Shown: positions 987 to 23,092 of the stretch, in pieces
How positions within the stretch are numbered: position 1 is the first letter of the stretch
Layout of the letters: each line of letters begins with the position of its first letter
Origin: a virus
Taxonomy: Duplodnaviria > Caudoviricetes
IMG/VR virus record: IMGVR_UViG_3300036830_000465
Span: 1-63,641 of that record
Direction: 5' to 3' (one strand)
DNA: 63,641 bases
Made by a program: the position numbers and the translations under genes
The notes under the pieces: generated by a model
Told to the model about the DNA's origin: nothing
The model's input: the letters and a program-made list of their open reading frames with translations, nothing else
Databases searched by the model: none

Positions 987-2288
987 CTAATATCCACTTC
1001 CAGTCCTTTCGATTCCGATATGTGTAACCCGAGGCCCGTCGCTTCGCTTCCCCAGAAACGCACACCGGTAGCCCTGATCCCACAACCGCGGCCCAAACTT
1101 CCCCTCTGATCCCGGAGCTTCCGGCCAGCCCATTCTCGCGATGCGGATGGGATACATACTGGGATTCGTCGAAAAGAACGCCCGGTGCGTCAGGTAATCT
1201 ACCCCGCCCCAGGACTCGTCCTTATAAAGGTCGGGCCACTGCGCAATGAACCCACCATCCGCTGGCTCCGCGCCCCACGGCTGGCGGCGCAAGCACACCT
1301 GCGCAAGGTCCGGATGGCTCTCCAGCAGGTTAAACGTTTCGTTCAAGTCCCACGGCTGATTGAGCAGAAAATCGTCTTCGCAGTGAACGATATATTCCGC
1401 GTGCGGCGGAATCAGCGCCCAGCCCTTTTGAATCGCGCCGGCGAAACCCAGGCGCCCCTGACTGTGGAAGATCGTAAACTCCGGAAACGCCGCGTCCAGC
1501 CATGCGGCATACTCCGGGCTCTGCGAGTCGTCGACCATGACATGGGAATTGCAGCGGGCCCGCACGCTGGCAAAGGAAGCCATCGTCCGCTCCATGCACT
1601 GCCGCCGCCCATCGGTAAGAACCAGCATGGCAATGTGACGGTCTTTGGCCCGGAAGATATCCGGGTGCACACGATCAGCGACGAACTGACGCTCGAACTG
1701 TGGCGGCAGCGTAATATCCGCCGTGATGTCTTCACGAATGTAGAGCATCCAGTTCTGGCGGTACCAGGGCGGAATCGCGGCCACATCCCAGAACTTGGAT
1801 TGAATAAACGGATGCGCCCAGAATTTCCGCTGATAGAAACGCTCGGCCCACCAGGACTGCCATTTTTCCGTCTGATGCCCTTCGCCGCCCTGGCCGGGGA
1901 TCGCCGCGGAGAACAAGACCATCGGCGCCATGTTGCACAGGTCGGCAACCAGCCGCTCTGCAGCGGCCGCGCTCAGGTGCTCAGCCACTTCCAGGCAGAT
2001 CGCCAACTCGCGCATTTTCCCGGCGATGTAACGGGACGATTCGAAGTTGTGGCGCCTGTACTCACCGACCGCGATCTCCATGCGCCGGTCCGCCCATTCG
2101 TGCCCGTCCACACCGTACACTTCGGCGGCGCCGCAGCGTTTGGCTTCGGCGAGAAAGTGACCCTCGCCACAGCCAATATCGATAATGGATTGCGGGTTGA
2201 ATAGGTCCATCAGCCAGGGAATCACCTGCGCTGCCGCAGCCTGACAGCCCGGACGAATGCTGTTGTAGAAGGCCTGATCGTAGCTCAC
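987..2288 (-). CDS. Class I SAM methyltransferase fused to C-terminal GT-A glycosyltransferase
   Basis: IIDIGCGEG and CLEVAEHL in the N-half; MVDDS and HCEDDF in the C-half. Confidence 0.85.
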   Translation of the reverse strand: MSYDQAFYNSIRPGCQAAAAQVIPWLMDLFNPQSIIDIGCGEGHFLAEAKRCGAAEVYGVDGHEWADRRMEIAVGEYRRHNFESSRYIAGKMRELAICLEVAEHLSAAAAERLVADLCNMAPMVLFSAAIPGQGGEGHQTEKWQSWWAERFYQRKFWAHPFIQSKFWDVAAIPPWYRQNWMLYIREDITADITLPPQFERQFVADRVHPDIFRAKDRHIAMLVLTDGRRQCMERTMASFASVRARCNSHVMVDDSQSPEYAAWLDAAFPEFTIFHSQGRLGFAGAIQKGWALIPPHAEYIVHCEDDFLLNQPWDLNETFNLLESHPDLAQVCLRRQPWGAEPADGGFIAQWPDLYKDESWGGVDYLTHRAFFSTNPSMYPIRIARMGWPEAPGSEGKFGPRLWDQGYRCAFLGKRSDGPRVTHIGIERTGSGY

Positions 2289-7535: not shown

Positions 7536-10500
7536 GCGATTTTAAACACCTGAATGTAGGACCCGGCTTCAATGGTGATCGCCGCCGTGGTGGTGCTGGC
7601 TTTGGCCTGCAGCTGAATGACGCCCGTGGTGCTGACCACAAACAATCCGGTATAGGTCACAAACGCGCTGATCTGGGTTGCGGAAATCGTCGACACAATC
7701 ACCGAGCCCGACGCCGCGTCTCCGTCGAAGGGAACGTGCTGGCCGACTACGGAAATGGTCTGGAATCCCTGGAGAGCCGAACCCGAGGCATAAACCTTGC
7801 CGCGCGCCCGAACCATAGCCGGGAAGGTCAGCCCGAACCCATAAGGCTGGGCCGCCGCACCGCGCAGCGTGTAGAGAAATGCCTGTAGCTGATAGATGCC
7901 GCCCGCCACCACGGCAGCGCTCAGTCCCGCAATATTGGTCAGCGACGTCGCCGAAATCACCACCGGCGATGCGAGAACTCTTGTGATTGGCCCCTTGACC
8001 ACGGCAGAAAGTACCGATACCTGTTGGCTGAGCACAGAAACGTCCTGGGATACGGCATTAACAGCCGAGGCGCGGACGCTCGCTTCGTTGCTGAGAACGG
8101 TGGAAATCACGCTCGCCTGCTGGCTGATGACAGACAGCCCTTGAGATAATGCGTTCACGGCAGAAACACGGTTCGCTGTTTCTGCGCTCAGGGCATTACT
8201 GACGATCGAGGCGGCGTTCGATGCGGCATTGACTCCCGAAATTCGATTGCTCGTCTCATTGCTCAAGGCATTGCTGACCACGGACACACCTTGAGAGAGA
8301 ACCGAAATCTGCTGGCTCAGGATGGAAACCGAATTCAGCAGCGCCGCTGCTGCCGACACCCGGTTCGAGGTTTCATTCGACAGCGCATTACTCACCACGT
8401 CAATCGCGCTTTTCGCCTGGGCGCTGACCGCGGACAGCTCATCGCTCGTCACGGATCCCGTCCCGGCCGCGACCGCGCTGTTTGCCGAGACTCGATTCGA
8501 AAGCACATTGTGCGCTGAAGTGAGATTGGAGACCTGAGCCGTCAAGACGCTGATCTGCTGGCTCAGGACCGATGCCGCTTGACTTAGGGTGTCATCTTTT
8601 GAAATTCGCGCCGCGGTCTCAACGCTTAACGCCTGAGACACGATGGATGCTGCGCTTGAAGCCGCGTTCGCTACCGAGAGGGCATTCGATGCCGCCGTCG
8701 AGACGATCGACACGGCCTGGCTCACAATGCTTGCCGCGTTGCTGGCGGCGTTGACGCCCGATATCCGGTTACTGGTTTCGTTGCTGAGCGCGTTGGCGGC
8801 AACAGAAACCGATTGCGAGGCCACACTGACCGCCTGGGATAGCAGGGATACCTGCTGGCTCAAGATCGATACGGAATTGGAAAGCGCGTTGTGCGCGGAC
8901 TGCCGATTGGAGATCTCATTCGAAAGGCCCTGCGACGCCACCGACACACCCTGGCTCAAAGTGGAAGCCTGTTGACTCAGCACCGAGGCCGCCTGGCTCA
9001 CCACGTTCACCGCAGACGCGCGATTCGATGCCTCGTTCGAGAGGCCCTGAGACAGTAGCGAGAGCGCCTGGCTCAGCGTGGACACCTGCTGGGAAAGCAC
9101 CGAAATCCCCTGCGACAGAGTGTCATCTTTCGCCACCCGGGCGGCCGATTCCACGCTCAGGGCCTGGGAAATAATCGACGCGGCATTGCTGACGACGTTG
9201 ATCGCCGAGGCCGCTTTCGCCGACACCGCCGAGAGTTCATTGCTCGTCACGCTGCCGCTTCCGCCACCGGCCGATACCAGATTGCTGACCGTGTTCGACA
9301 GCGTATTATGTGAGGCCGCCAGCGCGGACAGTGAATTGGACAGCGCGGCATCAGCCGAGGTGCGATTGCTGGTTTCGTTACTCAGGCCTTGCGATAAAAC
9401 GGATGCTGCTTGACTGACCGCGTTGACGGCTGAGGTTCGGACCGAGATTTCATTGGAAAGTGCGCCGCTTAGAATGGACGCCGCCTGGCTGAGAACCGAG
9501 GCTTGCTGCGACAGCACGGACGTGGCGTTCGACAGCAGGTCGTTCTTAGCAATCCGCGCTGCGGTTTCTACGCTGAGTCCCTGGCTGACCACACTGGCAG
9601 CATTACTTGCCGCATCGGCAACGCTTTTGACGTTCGAGAGTTCGGTGCTGGTGACACTCCCGGAGCCGCCACCGGCGGCGCTGTTGGCGGAAACGCGGTT
9701 ACTCAGGACGTCGTGCGCAGAAGCCAGATTGCTGAGCGTGTTCGATACCTGCCCGATGGCCGAGCCGCGGTTCGACGTTTCGTTGCTGAGGGCCTGGCTG
9801 ATAACGGAAGCACTTTGCGACAGGGAGTCCACGGCTGCCACTCGAACCGACTGCTCGTTCGACAGCGCACCGGAAACGCGGTTGACCGCGGAACTGCGAT
9901 TGGACGTTTCATTGGAAAGCGCCTGGGAGATCACCGAAGCGGACTGGGATACCGCGTCCACCTGCCCCTGCCGGGCGACGGCTTCGGTCGATACGAGACC
10001 GGACACCAGCGCCAGCCCCACGGCGATCGCGCTGATGGCATTGGAGGCCAGCGCGATCGCGGCGGTAAAGACGCCATCCACTGATGTGCGGGCGGCGGAT
10101 TCGACGCTCAACTGCTGGGAGACGGCCGAGATCCCGCTGGCCAGCTGCACGTCCACCGACGCGCGCGACGCGGATTCTGCGGCAATGCTCTCTGACAGAA
10201 CTGAAACGGCGGCGCTCAAGGCATCGTCGCCGGCTACTCGCGCGCTGGTTTCATTCGATGCCGCCTGTCCCAATCCTGCGGTTTCGGCGGCAAGCACGGA
10301 AACTGCAGCGCTCAGGGATTCGCGGGCGGCGCTTTCGGAATCGAATGCGCTTTCAATGTCGTCGAAATCTTTGGCTGTGGCCGCCCGGGCAATGTTGTCA
10401 TTGGCGCCAATCGCCAGCGCGGCGGTACCTTCTTGCGCCCTGGCATCGAGCGTCAGGACATCGCCGGCGCGATTCGACACCCGGACAATTTCCGCGCTTC

Positions 10501-10684
10501 CGTTCAGCGGAAACGAATCGGCAGCTGGCCAGACAATCAAGTTGTACCAGGTGGACGGATCGGCAAGTACGGCGAGAGGAAACCGGGCCCCATGCCCGGA
10601 CTGCAGGGTGAGGCTCAGTCCCGATAAGGCAGGGCTCGGTGCGGCGAGAACCGTCGAGTAGGCCAGATTCGTTCTCGGGTCCAT
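7532..10684 (-). CDS. Long Ser/Ala/Val-rich coiled-coil fibre protein
   Basis: N-terminal EIVRV...GDVLTL..RAQEGT anchor-like motif; repeated SNETSNR/SVETAAR and S-x-L-S-Q heptads; beta-rich C-terminal domain. Confidence 0.8.
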   Translation of the reverse strand: MDPRTNLAYSTVLAAPSPALSGLSLTLQSGHGARFPLAVLADPSTWYNLIVWPAADSFPLNGSAEIVRVSNRAGDVLTLDARAQEGTAALAIGANDNIARAATAKDFDDIESAFDSESAARESLSAAVSVLAAETAGLGQAASNETSARVAGDDALSAAVSVLSESIAAESASRASVDVQLASGISAVSQQLSVESAARTSVDGVFTAAIALASNAISAIAVGLALVSGLVSTEAVARQGQVDAVSQSASVISQALSNETSNRSSAVNRVSGALSNEQSVRVAAVDSLSQSASVISQALSNETSNRGSAIGQVSNTLSNLASAHDVLSNRVSANSAAGGGSGSVTSTELSNVKSVADAASNAASVVSQGLSVETAARIAKNDLLSNATSVLSQQASVLSQAASILSGALSNEISVRTSAVNAVSQAASVLSQGLSNETSNRTSADAALSNSLSALAASHNTLSNTVSNLVSAGGGSGSVTSNELSAVSAKAASAINVVSNAASIISQALSVESAARVAKDDTLSQGISVLSQQVSTLSQALSLLSQGLSNEASNRASAVNVVSQAASVLSQQASTLSQGVSVASQGLSNEISNRQSAHNALSNSVSILSQQVSLLSQAVSVASQSVSVAANALSNETSNRISGVNAASNAASIVSQAVSIVSTAASNALSVANAASSAASIVSQALSVETAARISKDDTLSQAASVLSQQISVLTAQVSNLTSAHNVLSNRVSANSAVAAGTGSVTSDELSAVSAQAKSAIDVVSNALSNETSNRVSAAAALLNSVSILSQQISVLSQGVSVVSNALSNETSNRISGVNAASNAASIVSNALSAETANRVSAVNALSQGLSVISQQASVISTVLSNEASVRASAVNAVSQDVSVLSQQVSVLSAVVKGPITRVLASPVVISATSLTNIAGLSAAVVAGGIYQLQAFLYTLRGAAAQPYGFGLTFPAMVRARGKVYASGSALQGFQTISVVGQHVPFDGDAASGSVIVSTISATQISAFVTYTGLFVVSTTGVIQLQAKASTTTAAITIEAGSYIQVFKIA

Positions 10685-15685: not shown

Positions 15686-17113
15686 TTAGTTCACCCCCAT
15701 CAGTTCGCGTTCCAGGCGTTTCTTGATTGGGACGATGGAATCAAGCGCACGCTTGCGCTCATCCCCGGTCGTCGAAGCATTGATGTGGGCGATGGCCATA
15801 TTGAAGCCGTCGATTGTGGTTTCTTCTCCGACGACGGAATCCGGCGCCCACCGTTTGACGGTTGCCAAATCGGCGGCCGACAGCTTCATCAGTTCTGCGC
15901 CGGAAAGCGTTTTTCGTTTTCCGTTCTGTTCTTCGGCTCCCGCGCCAACTCCGGCAGTCTTCAGGCCAGCCGTTACCGCAGCGGTAACAGCCTCGGTGAT
16001 GGTTTTCGTCAGATCGGCGGCCGTCAGTGCGACTTCCGGCTTTTTGCCGTCCTCGGTCTTCTCCGGCGCTTTCTTGCCGGCGGCCTCCAGCGCGTCCAGG
16101 CGGGCACCGACTGCCTGTTGCGTGGTTTTCACCTCCGCAATACCGGCTGTCAACGGAGCCAGCAGGGTCGCCATGAGAGCCTTCAATTGCTCTTCATTCA
16201 TGATCGTGTTTCCTTTTAAGGAAAGCTCGGGCTGCGTGCTGCGTGTGCTGGGTGCGCCATGAGCGGGTTGATGGTTTTCGAGATCCGCGGATGCTGCATT
16301 GGGAGGCGGCGGAGTCTCGAGCTTATTGGCGGCCAAATTGGTAAAGAAATAGGCGGCGGCTTCCCGGCGAAGGGCGGTTGCGCCGCGCCATTCGAAATCA
16401 TCCAGAATGAGAATCGTCTCGCCGGGAGCGACTTCAGAATCCAGGTGCGCTTTAAAATTCTTCAGGTCGTAACTGAACCCCAGTTCGCCACTGCGGGCCC
16501 GGTCGATGATTTTGGCAATCAGCGCCGGGTCGGATTTCTTATCCAGGAATCCCGAAGCGTAGACCTGATAGATTTCGGTTCCGGGAACCCGCTCACTGCG
16601 GGAATCGAGAAACTGGCCGATCTGCGCGGCATTGTCGTGACTGTCGAGTCCCTGGGCGGCGAAGACACTCTTACCGATCAGGCCAGCCACGCGCGCATTC
16701 ATCACTTCAACGGGAATCAATACGCGCAAGGGGCCGACGACTTTTCCGGCGTCATCCTTAATAAACTCGGTGCCACCGACACAGCCATCGCTGACATAGC
16801 CGGCACAGGTGACTGTCGCCAGAAACGGCTGTTTGGTCAGGTCGCTGGCGCCGGCCGTCAGCTGCAGCGGGATGTCGGCAAGCTGCAGACTCATCGTCAC
16901 TGGCACGCGAATGGCGCGGGCGGCGGCCCGGAGGCTATCGCCAGTGATGATCGTTTTCGGCAGCCAGCCTTTCCCGTTACAGCGGCCGCAGGCTTCCGGG
17001 ATGCCTTCCTTCAAAACGCGTCCGGATCCATGGCAGGTGCTGCAACTGACACAATCTTTGCAGTTGGGATACGGCCCATTCCAGTCCGGATTTCTGCAGC
17101 GCGCGCACGCCAC
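15686..17113 (-). CDS. Prohead protease/scaffold with N-terminal Cys-rich zinc finger
   Basis: LDSHD...IG and LGFSYD (His/Ser catalytic-type motifs); helical scaffold C-half; CxxCxGxG twice at the N-terminus. Confidence 0.7.
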   Translation of the reverse strand: MACARCRNPDWNGPYPNCKDCVSCSTCHGSGRVLKEGIPEACGRCNGKGWLPKTIITGDSLRAAARAIRVPVTMSLQLADIPLQLTAGASDLTKQPFLATVTCAGYVSDGCVGGTEFIKDDAGKVVGPLRVLIPVEVMNARVAGLIGKSVFAAQGLDSHDNAAQIGQFLDSRSERVPGTEIYQVYASGFLDKKSDPALIAKIIDRARSGELGFSYDLKNFKAHLDSEVAPGETILILDDFEWRGATALRREAAAYFFTNLAANKLETPPPPNAASADLENHQPAHGAPSTRSTQPELSLKGNTIMNEEQLKALMATLLAPLTAGIAEVKTTQQAVGARLDALEAAGKKAPEKTEDGKKPEVALTAADLTKTITEAVTAAVTAGLKTAGVGAGAEEQNGKRKTLSGAELMKLSAADLATVKRWAPDSVVGEETTIDGFNMAIAHINASTTGDERKRALDSIVPIKKRLERELMGVN

Positions 17114-17722
17114 TTAGAGTGCCTCCACTGTGTGGCAGCCGTGATTGCTGTGTGCTTGGCCCATGTGGCGAACCCTCAAATGCTCGACTTCAATTCCGTC
17201 AATGCGGTGAATATCGATTCCTGCCTGCTGGAGCGCGTAGCAGAAGGAAATATCCTGACCACCGTATTGCGTTTCTCCGGCAGACGGCGCGAGCCGCTGA
17301 CGGACGCCATCGCGATCAATCGTGAAACTTCGAGTGGAGAACCAAGGCAAGGGGAGCGTTTGGAAGATCTGCGCAGCAACGAGCGTGCAACCGAGGCCGC
17401 AAAATAACACGCGGCCCGCCTTGTCCAGCGCTGTCGAGCGGCCTCCACCTTCCAAGGCATAGTCGACGCACTGAACCAATTGCGGCGATTGTACATGAGA
17501 AATCAAATCACGCGGAACAACAATGTCTTCCTCGATGTAAAGAATCGATTCACATCCCAGCGACAAGGCCCGCCTGGTGATTTCGTTCTGCGCGCCGGGA
17601 ATCGGTTGATCGTGGGTGAGTAGCAGCCGGGTCTCGATGGCCGTGGCCCGGCGCATTTCCTCGATGGCTTCCATGGTTCGGCTGTGGACAAGGCCGCGGG
17701 AACACAGGCAAATCGCGATCAT
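17114..17722 (-). CDS. GT-A glycosyltransferase in head module
   Basis: LYIEEDIVV, GLGCTLV, YGGQDISF. Confidence 0.8.
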   Translation of the reverse strand: MIAICLCSRGLVHSRTMEAIEEMRRATAIETRLLLTHDQPIPGAQNEITRRALSLGCESILYIEEDIVVPRDLISHVQSPQLVQCVDYALEGGGRSTALDKAGRVLFCGLGCTLVAAQIFQTLPLPWFSTRSFTIDRDGVRQRLAPSAGETQYGGQDISFCYALQQAGIDIHRIDGIEVEHLRVRHMGQAHSNHGCHTVEAL

Positions 17723-17916
17723 TTCGTGATGCGAATCACCGCGCCGGCTTCCGCCGATTCGTGCTCGGCGATCATGGCTTCCATGTCGTCGACGGCTTTT
17801 TGGTGGAGCGCGATCGCTTCTTTGTGCGCGGCAACGCAGGCTTTCATTTTGTTGAGGTTTTTCTTCGAGAGCGCTTTGCCGACAGCTTCGAGGCCTTCAT
17901 TCATTTCAATATCCAT
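17719..17916 (-). CDS. Hypothetical protein
   Basis: Coupled ORF, helical. Confidence 0.55.
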   Translation of the reverse strand: MDIEMNEGLEAVGKALSKKNLNKMKACVAAHKEAIALHQKAVDDMEAMIAEHESAEAGAVIRITK

Positions 17917-18116
17917 CCCGTCAAAAGAGAAATTCCCAATGTGATCGCGCTACCGATCGCGAGCATCCGCAGGCAACTGGGACACAGGCACCGCGGCGGC
18001 TCGGAGCAGTTGACGCACCGGCTGAAATTGAATTTCACGAAACGAAATTGTCCGGAAGGAAGTGCAGCGTTTGGAGCGGAAGGTGGCCGGAGGTTTCGGG
18101 CGGCTGTTTCATTCAA
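17901..18116 (-). CDS. Hypothetical protein (Cys motif plus hydrophobic tail)
   Basis: Overlaps both neighbours in operon fashion. Confidence 0.4.
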   Translation of the reverse strand: MNETAARNLRPPSAPNAALPSGQFRFVKFNFSRCVNCSEPPRCLCPSCLRMLAIGSAITLGISLLTGWILK

Positions 18117-18339
18117 TGATCTCCAGACGGAACCGCCGCTGATATTTCATGCCGCAGCAGTTGAGAATGTGCCGCAGGGCTTCGGCGGTTTTGCCGAGCT
18201 TGCCGATGACCTTACCGATGTCGTTCTTATGCGTCCGCACTTCGAAAATGGTATTTTCCTCGCCGACGATTTCCATGATTTGCACATCTTCGGGATGGTC
18301 GACCAGGGCCTTGACGTTATCTTCAACCAACTGCTTCAT
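18109..18339 (-). CDS. khpA: Single KH-domain RNA-binding protein (KhpA/UPF0109)
   Basis: LVDHPEDV...DIGKVIGKLGKTAEALR; AGGAG RBS; 76 aa. Confidence 0.88.
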   Translation of the reverse strand: MKQLVEDNVKALVDHPEDVQIMEIVGEENTIFEVRTHKNDIGKVIGKLGKTAEALRHILNCCGMKYQRRFRLEIIE

Positions 18340-18368
18340 ATTGAGTTTCTCCTGAGTTAGAGCTTGAG

Positions 18369-20081
18369 CTAGAGCCATTGATCCACCTCGTCGCTGGGGA
18401 CATATAACGCCGTACAGCGACAATTCTTCACGACCACACCATTGGCGATGTAATATCCTCTACGTGTTTCGAGGGTAAATACATGACCGCTAAAATCACT
18501 TCTTTCGACAGAGACGATCTTGTCCGTGCCCGTCAGGACAGACTCACGCTTGAGCAAATGGCAGAGCGCTTCGGCTGCAGCATTCCCCTTATATCGAAGC
18601 GCCTCGTAGAGTGGGATTTCGAACGAACGGGCGGGCGACTGAAATTTGATACCGCCGAGATCGTTGCGCGTTTCAAGCGTGGCGAATCGGTCAAGGCGAT
18701 CGCCGCGGCCTTGAATACGTCCAGAAACGTTATCGGCCGCCGACTTCACGAATCGCGCATCACGCCCCGCAATAGAAGCGAAGGCATGCTTCAGAGAATG
18801 GCGAATTCTACGGCTGAGGAGCGGAGCCGTTGGTCTGATGCCGCCCATGCTGCAGTTCGCGGGAACCGCCAGCATTTCATCCGTACGGCCCTTACAAGGA
18901 ATTGCAAGATCGGTCGGGGAGAACTGGACATGATTGGCTGGCTCGGTGAGCGCGGCATTGCCTGCGTTCCGCAGAAGCCGGTCCAGTCGTATGTAATCGA
19001 TATCGCCTGCGCCCCGGTCGCCGTAGAAATTTACGTTCTGATTAGCAATCCGATGACTTTCGTGAAGCGCCGAAACCGAGCGATAGAAATCATGAAATCC
19101 GGATGGAGCTTTATCGGCGTTTGGATTTCGCAGAGACACCCGGTCTTGATCGAAGCGGCCGCTGATCACGTGGTCGCCTTCATTCAGGAGTCCAAGGGCT
19201 TTCCAGCCGGAGAGCGTCAGTACCGGGTGATTCGGGGTTCCGGTGAGCTTTACGCCGCTGGCCGTTTGGATGGTGACCACCTGACCGACATATAGCTGCC
19301 GGAACAGGCCTGCAGCATCCGGCGATTCAAATTCAGTCTCACCGATAAAGCAGTTCGCTATTTCTTCGATCGGTCCATTGGGGTCCAGGGGATAAAGGAG
19401 TCCGTTGCTGAAGGTGTCATCCATGTCCACCGCCTCCCGGATCTGATGCGACTCCCGCACCTTCTCATCCTGAGAGTTCGACCAGATCTTCTGGAGGTCG
19501 AGACCGGTCGCCTTCGCATTGATGTAGTCGCCGCCACTGGCGGCAATGCCGGTTTCCACCTGAGCAATCAACTCCGAGCGCGACACGCTCATTTCGTCGA
19601 ACAGGTCGCGGATATCCTTCGCGGTCTCGACAATGCTGTTGCCGTTTTTGATGCCTTCGGCCACGCGCACCGAAACGCGCTTCAGTGTGGTCTCGGCGAT
19701 ATCGTCGGAGACTTTGGCAACGCGGGACTTGGCAAACGCCGTCGCCTGCTTATCGAACAATTTCAGGTCGATGTTGACGCCGAGGTCGTGCAGCCCGGCA
19801 TTGTTCTGCGTGCCGGTCAGCTTCATCGCGCCTTTGATTTTGACCTGCAGCAGCTTGTTCCATTCCTTCTGGGACTCCGATAACACCTCAGTCACGGCAA
19901 TGTCGATCGAGTGGCCATCGTTGAAATCGATCTGCCGGGAGGCCTCCAGGCCGGTAATGCGATCGGCAATCATACGGCCCTGCTTTCGGAATAATGGCTT
20001 GAGCTTCTTTGCGAACTCGCGCTCGTAAGCGAGGAGTTTGGCCGACCGCTTCTGCTGGTATTCTTCAATCGTTTTTACCGT
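18369..20081 (-). CDS. MuF-like minor head protein containing an intein; frame open back to the A9 run at the portal 3' end
   Basis: RSELIAQVET, KIW....D.KVR.SH, FSNGL.YP.DP, N|CRC; first in-frame ATG at 19973. Confidence 0.85.
   Translation of the reverse strand, partial: TVKTIEEYQQKRSAKLLAYEREFAKKLKPLFRKQGRMIADRITGLEASRQIDFNDGHSIDIAVTEVLSESQKEWNKLLQVKIKGAMKLTGTQNNAGLHDLGVNIDLKLFDKQATAFAKSRVAKVSDDIAETTLKRVSVRVAEGIKNGNSIVETAKDIRDLFDEMSVSRSELIAQVETGIAASGGDYINAKATGLDLQKIWSNSQDEKVRESHQIREAVDMDDTFSNGLLYPLDPNGPIEEIANCFIGETEFESPDAAGLFRQLYVGQVVTIQTASGVKLTGTPNHPVLTLSGWKALGLLNEGDHVISGRFDQDRVSLRNPNADKAPSGFHDFYRSVSALHESHRIANQNVNFYGDRGAGDIDYIRLDRLLRNAGNAALTEPANHVQFSPTDLAIPCKGRTDEMLAVPANCSMGGIRPTAPLLSRRIRHSLKHAFASIAGRDARFVKSAADNVSGRIQGRGDRLDRFATLETRNDLGGIKFQSPARSFEIPLYEALRYKGNAAAEALCHLLKRESVLTGTDKIVSVERSDFSGHVFTLETRRGYYIANGVVVKNCRCTALYVPSDEVDQWL
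18423..19352 (-). mobile_element. Intein (310 aa) in MuF
   Basis: Starts CFIGET, block B TPNHPV, ends VFTLET....Y.ANGVVVKN followed by +1 Cys; splits the conserved NCRC motif. Confidence 0.88.
18483..19295 (+). CDS. HTH-HTH plus Vsr/DUF559-like endonuclease nested antisense in the intein
   Basis: Two HTH segments (LEQMAERFGCS, SVKAIAAALNTS); E.....L...GI....QK....Y.IDIA...VAVEI nuclease-type motif. Confidence 0.78.
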   Translation: MTAKITSFDRDDLVRARQDRLTLEQMAERFGCSIPLISKRLVEWDFERTGGRLKFDTAEIVARFKRGESVKAIAAALNTSRNVIGRRLHESRITPRNRSEGMLQRMANSTAEERSRWSDAAHAAVRGNRQHFIRTALTRNCKIGRGELDMIGWLGERGIACVPQKPVQSYVIDIACAPVAVEIYVLISNPMTFVKRRNRAIEIMKSGWSFIGVWISQRHPVLIEAAADHVVAFIQESKGFPAGERQYRVIRGSGELYAAGRLDGDHLTDI

Positions 20082-21454
20082 TTTTTTTTACGGACGGCGG
20101 TTAATACCAAAGAACGGGAAGCGGAGGCGGATCCGGAATCACCGTCCCCCTCATCGGGCGGCGGCACGCCCAGCACGGCCTTGTACTGCGACACGAACTC
20201 GCTGTGGCTCATATCGTCGGTCCCATCACCGGCCGGAGCAAATCCCAGGGCGGCGCGGTATTCTCCGCGGCTGATGCCATCGGCGAGCCACTGCTTGGTG
20301 GCCAGGTCGGTCTGTTCTTTCTCGTCCCAGGGATCGATGTTCGTGTAGGTGTAAACCAGATCCAGAATCTTCGGATCATTGGCGAGTTTGGCAATGCGGG
20401 GAATCACACGCTCGGTAATCCGGTTGGCCAGCGCGATACCGTAGGGCCGGACCGACTCTTCGATGCTGGCCGCCTGGCTGACCTCACCCTGGCTGCGGTT
20501 CACATCGCGCTCGATATTGAAATCCTGAGCCTTGAGCCGGAACGAAAACGCAAACACGCGGATCAGGATTTCCCAGTACTTGAGATACATCCCGTCGTCG
20601 TCGAGCGCCTTCAGCTGCAGCGTTTCTGGCTTGCCCATGCCGCCGAAAATGCCGGGCTTGGCGCGGCCAGTCAGCGTCGATTCCCAGTAATTCTGAAACC
20701 GGTCGACCATCGTCTGGTCGGCGGCCTCTCCCAGGGAAACCAAAAACGCAGGGTAAGCATCGGAAGCGACGTTGGCCTGATAGTTGGACAGCTTCAAGTA
20801 GGCGTCCATAGTGCTCAGCGCGACTTCGAGTGGGGACACGCCATAGGCCGTCGACGAGCGCCGGCGCATGATGATCGCTTCAATCTGGGAATCCAGCAGC
20901 GGGACAGGTTTCGGGCCGCCCTGCTGGACCCAGCGCGGCTTTGTGGGATCGCCGGCCCAGAGTTCGGTGCGCTCCAGACACCAGCCGGGAATCGGGATCA
21001 GCGCCAGAATGTCGTTCGGTACCGGCGCCGGCGTGGGTTTTTCCACGTATTCAAAGACACCCATGTCGAACGTCAGCTGATCCTCGACAATCTGCCCGAC
21101 AAACGTGGGCCAGTCGCCATCGTCGATGTTCGGATTGTCGAGCACGCGGCGCACGGTATCGATCTGTTTGGAATAGTCCACGCTGTCGTCGATGTGTTCG
21201 GGCGACGGCTCGATGCTGTATTCCAGCGCCTTCACCTTGTCCGTGATGAGGGTAATGGCACGCGATGCAATGGGAGTTTCTGCAAGCTTGATCAGCGTGC
21301 GCCAGTCGCGCCGCAGCTTTCGGGATTCGCTGGAGCCTCTCGGCCGCGGAACGCCACCAAACCGCAGCTGGGCCGCGGGAATGGTCACCTGCTCGGCCGC
21401 CCGCAGTTCGGGTAACGGCTGGAGCAATCCAAACTTTTCGAGAAGCTCTCTCAA
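20075..21454 (-). CDS. Portal protein
   Basis: 459 aa after TerL; LDNPN, YGVSPLE motifs. Confidence 0.88.
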   Translation of the reverse strand: MRELLEKFGLLQPLPELRAAEQVTIPAAQLRFGGVPRPRGSSESRKLRRDWRTLIKLAETPIASRAITLITDKVKALEYSIEPSPEHIDDSVDYSKQIDTVRRVLDNPNIDDGDWPTFVGQIVEDQLTFDMGVFEYVEKPTPAPVPNDILALIPIPGWCLERTELWAGDPTKPRWVQQGGPKPVPLLDSQIEAIIMRRRSSTAYGVSPLEVALSTMDAYLKLSNYQANVASDAYPAFLVSLGEAADQTMVDRFQNYWESTLTGRAKPGIFGGMGKPETLQLKALDDDGMYLKYWEILIRVFAFSFRLKAQDFNIERDVNRSQGEVSQAASIEESVRPYGIALANRITERVIPRIAKLANDPKILDLVYTYTNIDPWDEKEQTDLATKQWLADGISRGEYRAALGFAPAGDGTDDMSHSEFVSQYKAVLGVPPPDEGDGDSGSASASRSLVLTAVRKKKR

Positions 21455-21712: not shown

Positions 21713-23092
21713 TTAAAACATGAAAACGAGTTTCTGTTTGCGCACCTGCTCCAACGCATAGCGAATGGAATCGATGACGTGATTCTGCTTGTCAACCGGC
21801 ACCGGCAGCACCAGGCCGGACTGCGGATCGACTTTCCACGAGTAATTGCGCAGCTCCCGCAGGGTGTTCACGCAGCGCGGGTGAACGACGACGTCATAGC
21901 TCTTGATGAACTCGATGCCGTCCTTGACCGAGTTCGCGCCTTTTTCCGCGGCGATCATCTTCGGGAAACCATGGCTCTTCATGTGCGCGATGGTTTCCGG
22001 CCGCGCCGAATCGGCCCGGATGGGCCAGTCCCGGGAGCCGGGAATTCCCGGACAGTCGCGCCACCGGTTCATGCCGTCCGACTCCCATGCCTCGACGTTC
22101 AAGCCGCGCAGCTGGCGGTCTGCGGTGCCACCGAACAGGAATGGCAGGTAGGCGATATCGCAATGCTGCGCATAGGCCTCGTAATCGATGTAGAGGGTTT
22201 TCTCTTCGATGAACGTGCGCACCAGCACACTCGGATCGACCGCATAGCCCCAGTCTCCGCCGAAGAAAAAATGAGTGCCTTCCTTCGGCTCCGGGAATTC
22301 TCCGGGCTTCGCCTCTCGAAAGTTTTTAAAGATCCGCGCCTCGGAATTGCGTTCGTAGCCGCCCATCCAGATGTGTTCGTACTTGTCGGAATCGCGCTTG
22401 CGGTCCCATTCCATATCGACACGCAACGATGACGGGAACCACGGATTGTCCCAGTAGTTCACCTGGCGGACGATGGCTTCCGGATGCAGCTCCCAGTTTT
22501 GCCCGGGCTTGCGCGGGCCGTTGCCGCGGAAGAAATCATCGACCGGATCGGAAGGGTTCGTGGGATTCCAGGAGAACCACAGTTCGGCACGTTCCGCCAG
22601 CTGCAGATCCATGACATCGGTGGATTCCGAATCTGTCGGCGCGCTGGCAGGCCGGTCTTTCCGGATGGTCGGCGTCAGCTTTTCGAAGCTGGCTTTCGAA
22701 ACCGTCTGCGCCTCTTCGACCCAGACGCGGTCGATGCCTTCCATGGATTTGATCGAGTTGATGCTGCTGCGCAGTCCGGCAAACACGAACAGGGAATTGT
22801 TTTTCCGGCCGCGGATTTCCGTGTCCGTCGATTCGAACAGATCCGACAGGCCAAGCGCGGCAATCTTGTCATCGAGCAGCAGCTTCACCGAATCTTTGAT
22901 CGATGCCTGAATCTCACGGCAGCAGAGCGTGCGGTACGGACGGCTGACACTGGTGGTAATCAGCGCCTCGGCGATGGAATGACTCTTTGCGGAACCGCGG
23001 CCGCCCCAGACGCCTTTGTAGCGCATCGGCTGATAGAGGAAATCGAAGACTTCCGGGATGTGCGATTTAACGTGGAGTGTCGGACTTGACAA
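21713..23092 (-). CDS. terL: Terminase large subunit (PBSX family)
   Basis: GGRGSAKS Walker A, WVEEAQ Walker B, GGDWG, ADSARPETI, NHVIDSIRYA. Confidence 0.95.
   Translation of the reverse strand: MSSPTLHVKSHIPEVFDFLYQPMRYKGVWGGRGSAKSHSIAEALITTSVSRPYRTLCCREIQASIKDSVKLLLDDKIAALGLSDLFESTDTEIRGRKNNSLFVFAGLRSSINSIKSMEGIDRVWVEEAQTVSKASFEKLTPTIRKDRPASAPTDSESTDVMDLQLAERAELWFSWNPTNPSDPVDDFFRGNGPRKPGQNWELHPEAIVRQVNYWDNPWFPSSLRVDMEWDRKRDSDKYEHIWMGGYERNSEARIFKNFREAKPGEFPEPKEGTHFFFGGDWGYAVDPSVLVRTFIEEKTLYIDYEAYAQHCDIAYLPFLFGGTADRQLRGLNVEAWESDGMNRWRDCPGIPGSRDWPIRADSARPETIAHMKSHGFPKMIAAEKGANSVKDGIEFIKSYDVVVHPRCVNTLRELRNYSWKVDPQSGLVLPVPVDKQNHVIDSIRYALEQVRKQKLVFMF

What the first reader, a model, noticed from the sequence alone, without database searches (positions are those of the whole stretch)
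18423..19352. Intein whose endonuclease is encoded on the opposite strand
Seen: a 310-aa intein splits the MuF NCRC motif. Its middle shows no recognisable LAGLIDADG or HNH motif in the sense frame yet has no stop codon. The antisense strand holds a fully nested 270-aa ORF (18483-19295) with two HTHs and a Vsr/DUF559-like nuclease motif, overlapping splicing blocks B and F, so 813 nt code on both strands. The penultimate intein residue is Lys, not His. Inference: homing is supplied by an antisense gene, uncoupling nuclease timing from late expression. I recall alternate-frame intein endonucleases being reported in actinophages, so novelty needs a literature check.
Basis: partly seen in the sequence, partly recalled or inferred. 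Interest (0 to 1): 0.8.

Follow-up and report, generated by a model that had tools for sequence, protein, structure and literature searches.

The report
Intein carrying an antisense homing-endonuclease gene
A phage head-assembly gene is interrupted by a self-splicing intein whose middle encodes, on the opposite DNA strand, a real DNA-cutting enzyme gene; the layout is genuine and widespread but was first described in a 2025 preprint.

Summary
A 310-aa class-1 intein (18423-19352, minus strand) splits a MuF-like head protein at its N|CRC motif. A 270-aa ORF (18483-19295) lies fully inside it on the plus strand, codon for codon opposite the intein frame.

The antisense ORF is a real gene:
- It has 25 homologues (E 1e-17 to 1e-45).
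- Its model (pLDDT 88) shows two HTH units plus a Vsr-like nuclease (Z 11.0 to 1cw0).
- Substitutions in its core are mostly silent in its own frame (43825 vs 13717); at the intein ends the bias reverses.

The sense middle is not a nuclease: residues 128-269 model below pLDDT 50.

The endonuclease's ribosome-binding site and ATG are the antisense image of intein block F. Its C-terminus lies opposite block B.

In a set chosen by a nuclease-core motif, 35 of 35 unique relatives are nested in the same way. Relatives occur in 107 cultured phage records, and the four I inspected do not annotate the gene. Salmonella phages SE1 and GRNsp27 show an exact intein presence/absence difference.

A 2025 preprint (Gosselin et al.) already reports antisense Vsr-like endonucleases in actinophage inteins, so this is a new member of a known kind. 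Homing activity and expression timing remain inferred. This copy has unusual active-site residues.

The parts
18369..19973 (-). MuF-like (SPP1 gp7-type) head morphogenesis gene, 534 aa precursor including the intein
   Evidence: ORF. Pfam Phage_Mu_F E 1.3e-8; phrog_15127 head protein E 5.5e-51. It lies in a minus-strand block after the large terminase (21713-23092) and portal (20075-21454) genes.
19353..19973 (-). N-extein (aa 1-207), ending ...I-E-E-I-A-N
   Evidence: Intein delimitation.
18423..19352 (-). Class-1 intein, 310 aa: Cys1, block B T39/H42, C-terminal Lys309-Asn310
   Evidence: Pfam Intein_splicing E 9.2e-9. The model matches the Mtu RecA mini-intein 2in8 with Z 12.8, rmsd 1.7, 106 aligned residues, 31% identity.
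18372..18422 (-). C-extein (17 aa) starting with the +1 Cys of the C-R-C motif (18420-18422)
19155..19352 (-). N-terminal splicing subdomain (intein aa 1-66), including block B at 19227-19238
   Evidence: pLDDT 90-98. Sense-frame selection dominates here.
18546..18971 (-). Sense-frame linker (intein aa 128-269), predicted disordered; it serves only to keep the two splicing halves in one chain
   Evidence: pLDDT 35-47. Sense identity is 0.18 against HEN-frame identity 0.33 (intein 126-260). Conserved sense residues such as F-H-G-D are the antisense image of the HEN motif V-A-V-E.
18423..18539 (-). C-terminal splicing subdomain (intein aa 272-310; blocks F and G)
   Evidence: pLDDT 84-97. Sense-frame selection dominates.
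18483..19295 (+). Antisense homing-endonuclease (HEN) gene, 270 aa, codon-aligned with the intein frame
   Evidence: ORF. 25 homologues with E 3e-45 to 2e-17. Core-only search: 1175 representative clusters at E<=1e-3. Model pLDDT 88. Substitution pattern.
18471..18475 (+). Shine-Dalgarno-like GAGGG, 7 nt before the HEN ATG, encoded opposite intein block F (T-L-E)
   Evidence: An SD-like 4-mer lies at -16..-5 in 48 of 55 family sequences against a background of 0.14, and in 19 of 30 in the unbiased set.
18510..18620 (+). First helix-turn-helix unit (HEN aa 10-46); absent in many relatives
   Evidence: Helices 10-18, 23-30, 34-46. Z 5.1-5.7 to DosR and NtrC1 DNA-binding domains. Gapped in most rows of A1.
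18651..18752 (+). Second helix-turn-helix unit (HEN aa 57-90)
   Evidence: HTH_23 E 3.9e-5. Z 6.8, rmsd 1.5 to the gamma-delta resolvase HTH.
18906..19262 (+). Vsr/DUF559-like nuclease domain (HEN aa 142-260) with E147, D173 and E182
   Evidence: VIA Z 11.0 to Vsr 1cw0 (rmsd 2.8, 109 aligned), 10.2 to I-Bth0305I 3r3p, 9.7 to 3hrl. Family profile vs 3hrl E 6.9e-5. 14 of 26 family members hit Pfam MTES_1575.

Best explanation
The MuF head-morphogenesis gene of this phage carries a class-1 intein at its conserved N|C-R-C motif.

The intein is a composite of two genes on opposite strands.
- Sense strand: two HINT splicing halves (aa 1-66 and 272-310, perhaps extending to about aa 125) joined by a stop-free, largely disordered linker. 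The linker only has to stay open so that the halves remain in one chain.
- Opposite strand, codon for codon: a separate 270-aa protein with one or two helix-turn-helix DNA-binding units and a Vsr/DUF559-like nuclease domain. Its Shine-Dalgarno sequence and start codon are written into the antisense of intein block F. Its C-terminal 47 residues lie opposite the block-B region.

Because the frames are codon-aligned, each gene only has to avoid three codons (TTA, CTA, TCA) to keep the other frame open.

Most likely mechanism (inferred): the nuclease is made from its own plus-strand transcript. It cuts intein-less MuF alleles of co-infecting relatives at or near the N|CRC-coding site, and repair copies the whole intein-plus-nuclease unit into the cut allele. 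Protein splicing then keeps MuF functional.

Shown here: anatomy, homology, fold, selection in each frame, obligate nesting across the family, and an intein presence/absence pair in related cultured phages.

Inferred: cleavage, target site, transcription and timing.
For: Anatomy.

Homology and fold of the HEN.
- 25 homologues of the whole ORF (E 3.2e-45 to 2.3e-17).
- Core-only query (aa 17-223): 1175 representative clusters at E<=1e-3, 416 at E<=1e-10.
- Near-invariant R96, E147, Q164, Y170, D173 and E182 in 163-171 of 173 aligned rows.
- Model pLDDT 88. Vsr 1cw0 Z 11.0, I-Bth0305I Z 10.2, 3hrl Z 9.7. Family profile vs 3hrl E 6.9e-5.
- Pfam MTES_1575 in 14 of 26 members.

Selection, on 55 unique intein sequences. 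Counts are single-nucleotide codon differences.
- HEN core: silent-in-HEN/changing-in-sense 43825 vs the reverse 13717.
- Intein-only ends: 902 vs 7057 and 1080 vs 4976.
- The result is the same with a sense-frame alignment: 26207 vs 6413 for intein 126-260, 901 vs 7140 for intein 291-310.
- The sliding profile switches sign at about intein 55 and about 275.

Sense middle: disordered. The intein model matches only HINT domains.

Translation signals: the start column is ATG in 41 and GTG in 10 of 55. SD-like motif in 48 of 55 against background 0.14. In the unbiased set: ATG 15 + GTG 6 of 30, SD 19 of 30.

Nesting.
- 80 of 80 loci (a biased set).
- 35 of 35 unique ORFs in a set chosen by a nuclease-core motif.
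- 4 of 4 inspected cultured phages.

Mobility: SE1 (272-aa intein) vs GRNsp27 (none). Exteins are 339/348 aa identical and the junction is exact. PMC6776784 notes the same polymorphism (passages).
Against: - No evidence of transcription or translation. No sigma-70-like promoter was found in 17900-19700 (0 found, 0.9 expected by chance). The HEN is the only plus-strand gene in a minus-strand late block.
- The window's copy deviates at conserved nuclease positions. It has V171 where 169 of 173 rows have Asn, and no His between E182 and residue 196. That is the expected general-base region of the EDxHD family, although 29 of 173 rows share this lack.
- The window protein alone reaches no nuclease Pfam family at E<=0.01.
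- Foldseek E-values are weak (best 0.077).
- No close relative of this phage's MuF was found (best 31-37% identity), so no intein-less allele or recent movement can be shown for this phage.
- Pairwise substitution counts are not phylogenetically independent.
- 17 of 80 loci were dropped before the count because my pattern could not delimit their inteins.
Confidence: 0.85

Rival explanations
1. The architecture is real, but in this phage the endonuclease is an inactive relic. The intein is now inherited vertically, and the antisense ORF has simply not yet acquired a stop.
For: V171 replaces the Asn found in 169 of 173 rows. There is no His in the general-base region. K205 sits where Asp or Asn is usual. 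No nuclease Pfam hit for this copy alone. No close relatives were found to show recent movement. The preprint also expects such decay.
Against: - The ORF is full length, with ATG and GAGGG in place.
- E147, D173, E182 and the other near-invariant residues are kept.
- 29 of 173 rows lack the His yet keep intact ORFs, which suggests a viable subtype.
- In the frame-aligned layout a relic should soon collect TAA, TAG or TGA through silent Leu/Ser changes in the sense frame. None is seen in 270 codons.
Confidence: 0.25
2. The antisense ORF is a chance or 'shadow' ORF of a GC-rich gene. The sense-frame insert is the functional domain.
For: Long nested antisense ORFs are common in this window, for example 403 aa inside the portal gene and 412 aa at 9423-10661. 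Codon-aligned antisense frames stay open easily.
Against: - Homologues down to E 3e-45.
- Vsr-like fold at pLDDT 88.
- Substitutions are silent in the antisense frame 3-4 times more often than in the sense frame in the middle.
- The sense middle models below pLDDT 50 and matches no fold.
- Conserved sense residues in the middle map exactly onto conserved HEN residues.
Confidence: 0.02
3. The antisense protein is made but does not drive homing. It could be a DNA-binding regulator. Its transcript could damp MuF expression. Or it could be a nuclease used against competing phages, without copying the intein.
For: It has one or two HTH units. The catalytic region of this copy is atypical. Its transcription would converge on the late operon.
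Against: - The family was found only inside inteins: 35 of 35 in the unbiased set. 167 of 173 aligned rows carry the antisense image of block B Asn-His.
- Acidic catalytic residues are conserved.
- The exact intein presence/absence among 93%-identical extein genes is the pattern expected of homing.
Confidence: 0.08

Closest known systems
Full inteins with an anti-sense VSR-like homing endonuclease in actinobacteriophages (Gosselin, Arsenault & Gogarten, bioRxiv 10.1101/2025.01.02.630785; I read the abstract, section 15 in full, and passages of sections 3, 6-8, 14 and 28)
   Same: - A contiguous intein with the endonuclease ORF on the antisense strand.
- A Vsr-like fold: their Z 10.6 to 1CW0 over residues 144-267, mine Z 11.0 over 142-260.
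- A helical N-terminal extension.
- A sense middle without recognisable structure.
- Minor capsid (MuF-type) proteins among the host genes.
- Gordonia phages such as Vivi2 and Fosterous carry relatives of the window's HEN.
   Different: - The window is an uncultured IMG/VR virus of unknown host. Relatives occur in phages of Salmonella, Pseudomonas, Klebsiella, Vibrio and others.
[quoted passage not shown]
Fractured genes: split inteins with a free-standing Vsr-like endonuclease gene between the halves (Dassa et al. 2009, PMC2677866; abstract and passages)
   Same: The same kind of nuclease (Vsr-like, with an N-terminal DNA-binding module) sits between the N- and C-terminal splicing parts of an intein in phage genes.
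   Different: There the endonuclease ORF breaks the host gene into two genes and the intein works in trans. Here the sense frame stays open through the endonuclease gene, so the intein remains one chain. The nuclease is read from the other strand.
I-Bth0305I, prototype of the EDxHD homing endonucleases (Taylor et al. 2011, PMC3239194; abstract and passages; PDB 3r3p)
   Same: N-terminal HTH/NUMOD-type DNA-binding region plus a C-terminal Vsr-like catalytic domain. Structural match Z 10.2, rmsd 3.1, 91 aligned residues. Conserved Glu, Asp and an extra acidic residue.
   Different: I-Bth0305I is encoded in a group I intron in the sense orientation. The window protein lacks the general-base His of the motif. 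Sequence similarity to 3r3p was not detected by HMMER.
Anti-sense LAGLIDADG endonucleases in inteins (Gorbalenya 1998; Gogarten 2002; known to me only as cited in the preprint; papers not read)
   Same: A homing endonuclease ORF on the strand opposite the intein.
   Different: A different nuclease family. Reported in bacterial dnaX and SpoVR-like genes.
The 'large intein' in the capsid morphogenesis gene of Guernseyvirinae-like phages (Snoke announcement, PMC6776784; UPWr phages, PMC8425127; passages only)
   Same: The same host gene and insertion site. The same intein family as in Salmonella phages SE1 and LSPA1, which hold relatives of the window's HEN. Presence/absence among relatives was noted there.
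   Different: The passages I saw mention no endonuclease on the opposite strand. The GenBank records I inspected annotate none.

Membership tests
Class-1 intein (HINT superfamily) | N-terminal nucleophile (Cys/Ser) at position 1 | tested here: met
   Cys1 at 19350-19352. It is invariant in 52 aligned inteins.
Class-1 intein (HINT superfamily) | Block B Thr-x-x-His | tested here: met
   T39 and H42, invariant in alignment A3.
Class-1 intein (HINT superfamily) | C-terminal Asn followed by a Cys/Ser/Thr +1 extein residue | tested here: met
   N310 followed by Cys.
Class-1 intein (HINT superfamily) | Penultimate His (common, not universal) | tested here: not met
   Lys309. In 55 family sequences the aligned column is His 31, Ser 6, Lys 4, Arg 3, Ala 2, other 2, gap 7. 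Some ends were imprecisely delimited.
Class-1 intein (HINT superfamily) | HINT fold | tested here: met
   The model matches the Mtu RecA mini-intein 2in8 with Z 12.8, rmsd 1.7, 106 aligned residues. 62 chains reach Z>=8; all 50 entries shown (lowest Z 8.9) are intein, Hedgehog or BIL HINT domains.
Class-1 intein (HINT superfamily) | Protein splicing activity | not testable with these tools
   Inferred from the intact catalytic residues and from the gene sitting in the head-morphogenesis module between portal and downstream genes.
Intein with anti-sense VSR-like HEN (Gosselin et al. 2025 preprint) | Contiguous (not split) intein with a complete endonuclease ORF on the opposite strand, between the splicing blocks | tested here: met
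Intein with anti-sense VSR-like HEN (Gosselin et al. 2025 preprint) | Antisense product has a Vsr-like nuclease fold; the sense middle has no recognisable fold | tested here: met
Intein with anti-sense VSR-like HEN (Gosselin et al. 2025 preprint) | Found in an actinobacteriophage | not testable with these tools
   The window is an IMG/VR virus record without a host. Relatives occur in phages of both Actinobacteria and Gammaproteobacteria.
EDxHD / Vsr-like homing endonucleases (I-Bth0305I) | Vsr-like catalytic fold with an N-terminal HTH/NUMOD DNA-binding region | tested here: met
   Z 10.2 to 3r3p and 11.0 to 1cw0. HTH units at aa 10-46 and 57-90.
EDxHD / Vsr-like homing endonucleases (I-Bth0305I) | Conserved Glu and Mg-binding Asp | tested here: met
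   E147 (167 of 173 rows) and D173 (171 of 173 rows), both present in the window copy. Their equivalence to the I-Bth0305I residues is inferred from motif order, not from a residue-level superposition.
EDxHD / Vsr-like homing endonucleases (I-Bth0305I) | General-base His (H213 in I-Bth0305I) | tested here: not met
   The window copy has no His between E182 and residue 196. It has Y184 and N189 where many relatives have His. 29 of 173 rows likewise lack a His there.
EDxHD / Vsr-like homing endonucleases (I-Bth0305I) | Site-specific double-strand cleavage next to the insertion site | not testable with these tools
Pfam MTES_1575 / DUF559 / Vsr nuclease families | Significant profile match | tested here: inconclusive
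   The window protein alone has no hit at E<=0.01. Among 26 family members: MTES_1575 14 (best E 5.3e-9), DUF559 3, Vsr 2. The family profile matches the DUF559-like structure 3hrl at E 6.9e-5.
MuF / SPP1 gp7 head morphogenesis proteins | Phage_Mu_F domain and the conserved (H-P-)N-C-R-C motif | tested here: met
   Pfam Phage_Mu_F 36.0 bits against a cut-off of 29.6. Removing the intein restores ...A-N|C-R-C.... The intein-less GRNsp27 allele reads ...H-P-N-C-R-S....

The most novel reading that the evidence does not exclude
This nuclease lineage may exist only as the antisense partner of one intein lineage: a co-evolved two-strand gene pair, not an occasional accident.

- Its ribosome-binding site and start codon are hard-wired into the codons of intein block F.
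- About 100 codons appear to be constrained in both frames. These are the nuclease catalytic core and C-terminal hairpin opposite intein residues 21 to about 125, including block B.
- No free-standing relative appeared among the 150 best clusters, nor among 35 loci found through a nuclease-core motif.

If so, it would be one of the largest and most anciently conserved sense/antisense overlapping gene pairs known in phages. It is present but unannotated in many cultured Salmonella, Klebsiella, Pseudomonas and Gordonia phages.
Probability: 0.45. Interest if true: 0.65.

Novelty: new member of a known kind. Interest (0 to 1): 0.45.

Why it matters
- It shows how a selfish nuclease can join an intein without breaking it. 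Inserted in the codon-aligned antisense frame, each gene need only avoid three codons for the other to stay open. This supports the 'splicing domain first, endonuclease later' view of intein origins.
- It exposes an annotation gap. In the four cultured phage records I inspected the nuclease gene is not annotated, and 107 records hold a relative, including phages considered for therapy.
- It offers a clean natural system for studying long antisense overlapping genes and convergent transcription within a late operon.
- It shows that about 140 residues of arbitrary linker can be tolerated between intein halves.

For this window alone, the finding is a further example of a layout reported in 2025.

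Tried and rejected
- Single-sequence PDB search with the HEN found nothing (best E 0.71, actin-related proteins).
- Foldseek alone gave only weak E-values (best 0.077). The structural claim rests on VIA-align Z-scores.
- ORF length as evidence was rejected, because long nested antisense ORFs are common in this window.
- The invariance of the block-B Asn and His codons (AAT 55 of 55, CAC 54 of 55) looked like proof of dual constraint. I rejected it as an artefact. The loci were selected through a peptide pattern that is the antisense image of block B. In the unbiased set the ratios are 18:7 and 18:7.
- The '80 of 80 nested' count carries the same bias, so I repeated the test with a nuclease-core motif.
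- The search for related loci with a core-only alignment failed in both collections because no stretch was conserved enough.
- Searching for close relatives of this phage's MuF N-extein gave only 8 loci at 31-37% identity. No intein-less allele of this particular phage is available.
- The promoter scan of 17900-19700 found no sigma-70-like site.
- Sequencing runs: none was listed, and no RNA holder was listed.
- No tRNA genes in the window.
Nesting for them is inferred only from the C-terminal motif.
- Supplementary tables of the preprint are closed. They may name the phages and clusters with antisense VSR-like endonucleases.
- An apparent premature stop in L002 lies upstream of the real start, and the one in L001 is the natural stop.
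Full report
**1. What is there**

The minus-strand ORF 18369-19973 encodes a 534-aa protein. It has a Phage_Mu_F domain (aa 100-189, E 1.3e-8) and an Intein_splicing match (aa 214-517, E 9.2e-9). It also matches phrog_15127 'head protein' at E 5.5e-51. It follows the large terminase (21713-23092) and portal (20075-21454) genes on the same strand.

The intein is aa 208-517, window 18423-19352, 310 aa. It has Cys1, block B T39-x-x-H42, C-terminal Lys309-Asn310 and a +1 Cys. Removing it restores ...A-N|C-R-C..., the MuF signature.

The plus-strand ORF 18483-19295 (270 aa) lies wholly inside the intein. Its codons are the exact reverse complements of the intein codons: HEN residue k lies opposite intein residue 291-k.

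The window is a complete IMG/VR record of 63,641 bases, estimated 68% complete, with no host given.

**2. ORF length is not evidence**

The window has many nested antisense ORFs of 200-412 aa, including 403 aa inside the portal gene. The case must therefore rest on other grounds.

**3. The antisense ORF is a real, conserved gene**

- A whole-ORF search found 26 proteins at E<=1e-3. Twenty-five have E between 3.2e-45 and 2.3e-17.
- A search with the core only (aa 17-223, which avoids both overlaps with splicing blocks) found 1175 representative clusters at E<=1e-3 and 416 at E<=1e-10.
- In an alignment of 173 rows, these residues are near-invariant: R96 (171), E147 (167), Q164 (164), Y170 (163), D173 (171), E182 (171).
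- An AlphaFold2 model from 26 sequences has mean pLDDT 88.
- VIA-align gives Vsr 1cw0 Z 11.0 (rmsd 2.8, 109 aligned, residues 142-260), I-Bth0305I 3r3p Z 10.2 and the DUF559-like 3hrl Z 9.7. Residues 51-92 match the resolvase HTH at Z 6.8.
- Foldseek E-values are weak (best 0.077), but the same proteins lead the list.
- A family profile matches 3hrl at E 6.9e-5.
- 14 of 26 members hit Pfam MTES_1575, 3 hit DUF559 and 2 hit Vsr. The window copy alone hits only HTH families.

**4. Which frame is under selection**

I delimited inteins in 63 of the 80 loci. Seventeen were dropped because my pattern failed. With the window this gave 55 unique sequences. I counted codon pairs that differ by one nucleotide.

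- HEN core (aa 17-223): changes silent in the HEN frame but not the sense frame number 43825, against 13717 for the reverse. HEN-frame identity is 0.356 against 0.225 for the sense frame.
- The 20 codons at each intein end outside the HEN ORF: the bias reverses, 902 vs 7057 and 1080 vs 4976.
- Re-aligning in the sense frame gives the same picture: intein 126-260, 26207 vs 6413; intein 291-310, 901 vs 7140.

A sliding profile shows three regimes:

| Intein residues | log2 (HEN-silent / sense-silent) | Dominant constraint |
|---|---|---|
| 126-260 | +1.6 to +2.9 | HEN frame |
| about 56-125 (opposite the nuclease core) | +0.2 to +1.1 | mixed |
| 1-55 and 276-310 | -0.9 to -2.9 | sense frame |

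The counts are pairwise and not phylogenetically independent, so they describe direction, not rates.

**5. The sense middle is a linker**

A model of the intein from 52 sequences has pLDDT 90-98 for residues 1-66 and 84-97 for 272-310. Residues 78-125 reach 69-84, and residues 128-269 fall below 50.

It matches only HINT domains. The best is the Mtu RecA mini-intein at Z 12.8, rmsd 1.7, 106 aligned residues and 31% identity. Endonuclease-bearing inteins align over about 108 residues only.

Conserved sense residues in the middle (F109-H110-G111-D112, V121, L127, P83) lie exactly opposite conserved HEN residues (E182-V181-A180-V179, Y170, Q164, W208). They are therefore antisense images, not evidence of a sense-frame domain.

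**6. How the two genes are fitted together**

The HEN start codon lies opposite the His that precedes block F. The sequence upstream, consensus C-T-G-G-A-G-G-T-T-G-T-A-n-A-C before the ATG, is the antisense of block F H-V-Y-N-L-Q.

- The start column is ATG in 41 and GTG in 10 of 55 sequences.
- An SD-like 4-mer lies at -16..-5 in 48 of 55, against a background of 0.14.
- In the window the SD is GAGGG at 18471-18475.
- At the other end, HEN residues 224-270 lie opposite intein residues 21-67, with V249-I250 opposite H42-N41.

**7. A bias I had to correct**

The loci were found with a peptide pattern that is itself the antisense image of block B. The '80 of 80 nested' count and the apparent invariance of the Asn/His codons are therefore biased.

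I repeated the search with a motif from the nuclease core (119 or more matching stretches, 80 loaded).

- 37 of the 80 loaded loci encode a core relative.
- All 35 unique HEN ORFs are covered by a codon-aligned open frame on the other strand. That frame is longer than the HEN frame in 34; the exception touches a contig end.
- In this set block B Asn is AAT 18 / AAC 7 and His is CAC 18 / CAT 7. The start column is ATG 15 + GTG 6 of 30, and an SD-like motif is present in 19 of 30.
- Among the 173 aligned family rows, 167 carry V/M followed by I/V at the two positions opposite His-Asn.

I found no clearly free-standing member.

**8. Distribution**

tblastn against cultured phage genomes found 107 records: Salmonella 59, Pseudomonas 15, Gordonia 11, Klebsiella 8, Vibrio 3 and others.

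I inspected four: Salmonella phage vB_SenS_SE1, Klebsiella phage KpTDp1, Pseudomonas phage vB_Pae_BR313c and Gordonia phage Vivi2. In each, the intact HEN ORF lies codon-aligned inside an annotated opposite-strand CDS (MuF, structural or hypothetical), and no CDS is annotated for the HEN itself.

Most host proteins end the N-extein with ...(H-P-)N and resume with C-R-C. Ten atypical ones gave Phage_Mu_F (1), Phage_min_cap2 (1), VG15 (3), one with a Glyco_hydro_19 segment, and four with no extein family.

**9. Mobility**

The SE1 MuF gene has a 272-aa intein. Several closely related Salmonella phages match the same gene in two pieces covering 55-56% of it.

In GRNsp27 the gene reads straight through ...P-A-H-P-N|C-R-S-T-T.... 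Exteins are 339 of 348 aa and 971 of 1044 nt identical to SE1.

The Snoke genome announcement notes the same intein and a relative that lacks it (PMC6776784, passages). This is the pattern expected of homing or of precise loss. It does not show which.

**10. This copy**

- It keeps E147, D173 and E182.
- It has Val171 where 169 of 173 rows have Asn.
- It has no His between E182 and residue 196, the region of the EDxHD general base (Taylor 2011, passages). 29 of 173 rows share this lack.
- No sigma-70-like promoter was found in 17900-19700.
- No close relative of this MuF was found.
- Activity and expression of this copy are therefore open.

**11. Literature**

Gosselin, Arsenault and Gogarten (bioRxiv 10.1101/2025.01.02.630785) report inteins with VSR-like endonucleases on the anti-sense strand in actinobacteriophages. 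I read the abstract, section 15 in full and passages of sections 3, 6-8, 14 and 28.

- Their host genes for non-canonical endonucleases include minor capsid proteins.
- Their model matches 1CW0 at Z 10.6 over residues 144-267.
- They cite earlier anti-sense LAGLIDADG cases (Gorbalenya 1998; Gogarten 2002; not read by me).
- They also cite the split-intein 'fractured genes' of Dassa 2009 (PMC2677866; abstract and passages).

Searches for intein with 'opposite strand', 'antisense', 'anti-sense', MuF or minor capsid, and Jerseyvirus or Guernseyvirinae found no other description of the antisense gene. The library lacks most subscription journals.

**12. Verdict**

The kind is already described, so this is a new member.

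- the strict codon alignment of the two frames;
- translation signals embedded in block F;
- the overlap with block B and the frame-specific selection profile;
- the apparently obligate nesting;
- the spread into many cultured, unannotated phages of Gram-negative hosts.

Homing, expression and timing remain inferences.

Noticed in passing
window 18109-18423 (-): Directly after the MuF gene lies a small ORF with a strong KhpA/KhpB-type KH (RNA-binding) domain match (E 8.9e-21). This is an unusual neighbour in a head-morphogenesis block. Its likely ATG slightly overlaps the end of MuF.
   Followed up: partly
window 20204-21415 (+), 16259-17407 (+), 9423-10661 (+), 1185-2204 (+): Other long nested antisense ORFs (339-412 aa) lie inside minus-strand structural genes. 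I took them as chance products of composition and did not test them for homologues.
   Followed up: no
L033, L074, L075 (IMG/VR loci): In these MuF genes the intein appears to sit two residues further on, after N-C-R and before the second Cys. This suggests two adjacent insertion sites in the same motif.
   Followed up: no
L020:2398-4593 (-): The same intein-plus-antisense-nuclease unit sits in a protein with a Glyco_hydro_19 (chitinase/lysozyme-like) segment and no MuF match. This is a possible switch of host gene.
   Followed up: partly
L090 (Salmonella phage SE1), L091 (Klebsiella phage KpTDp1), L092 (Pseudomonas phage BR313c), L093 (Gordonia phage Vivi2): In all four GenBank records the intact antisense nuclease ORF is not annotated. 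In two other Salmonella phage records (PK2, vB_StyS-sam) extra 'hypothetical protein' features lie under the MuF gene and may be this ORF.
   Followed up: partly
window 18993-18995 (HEN residue 171): The window's nuclease has Val where 169 of 173 aligned family rows have Asn (the Y-N-x-D motif). It is the only row with Val.
   Followed up: partly
alignment A1; family-wide: Family members come in one-HTH and two-HTH forms (the first HTH is absent in most rows). They also come in two active-site subtypes after the V-A-V-E motif: one with G-x-W-H and one with N-P/H-P.
   Followed up: partly
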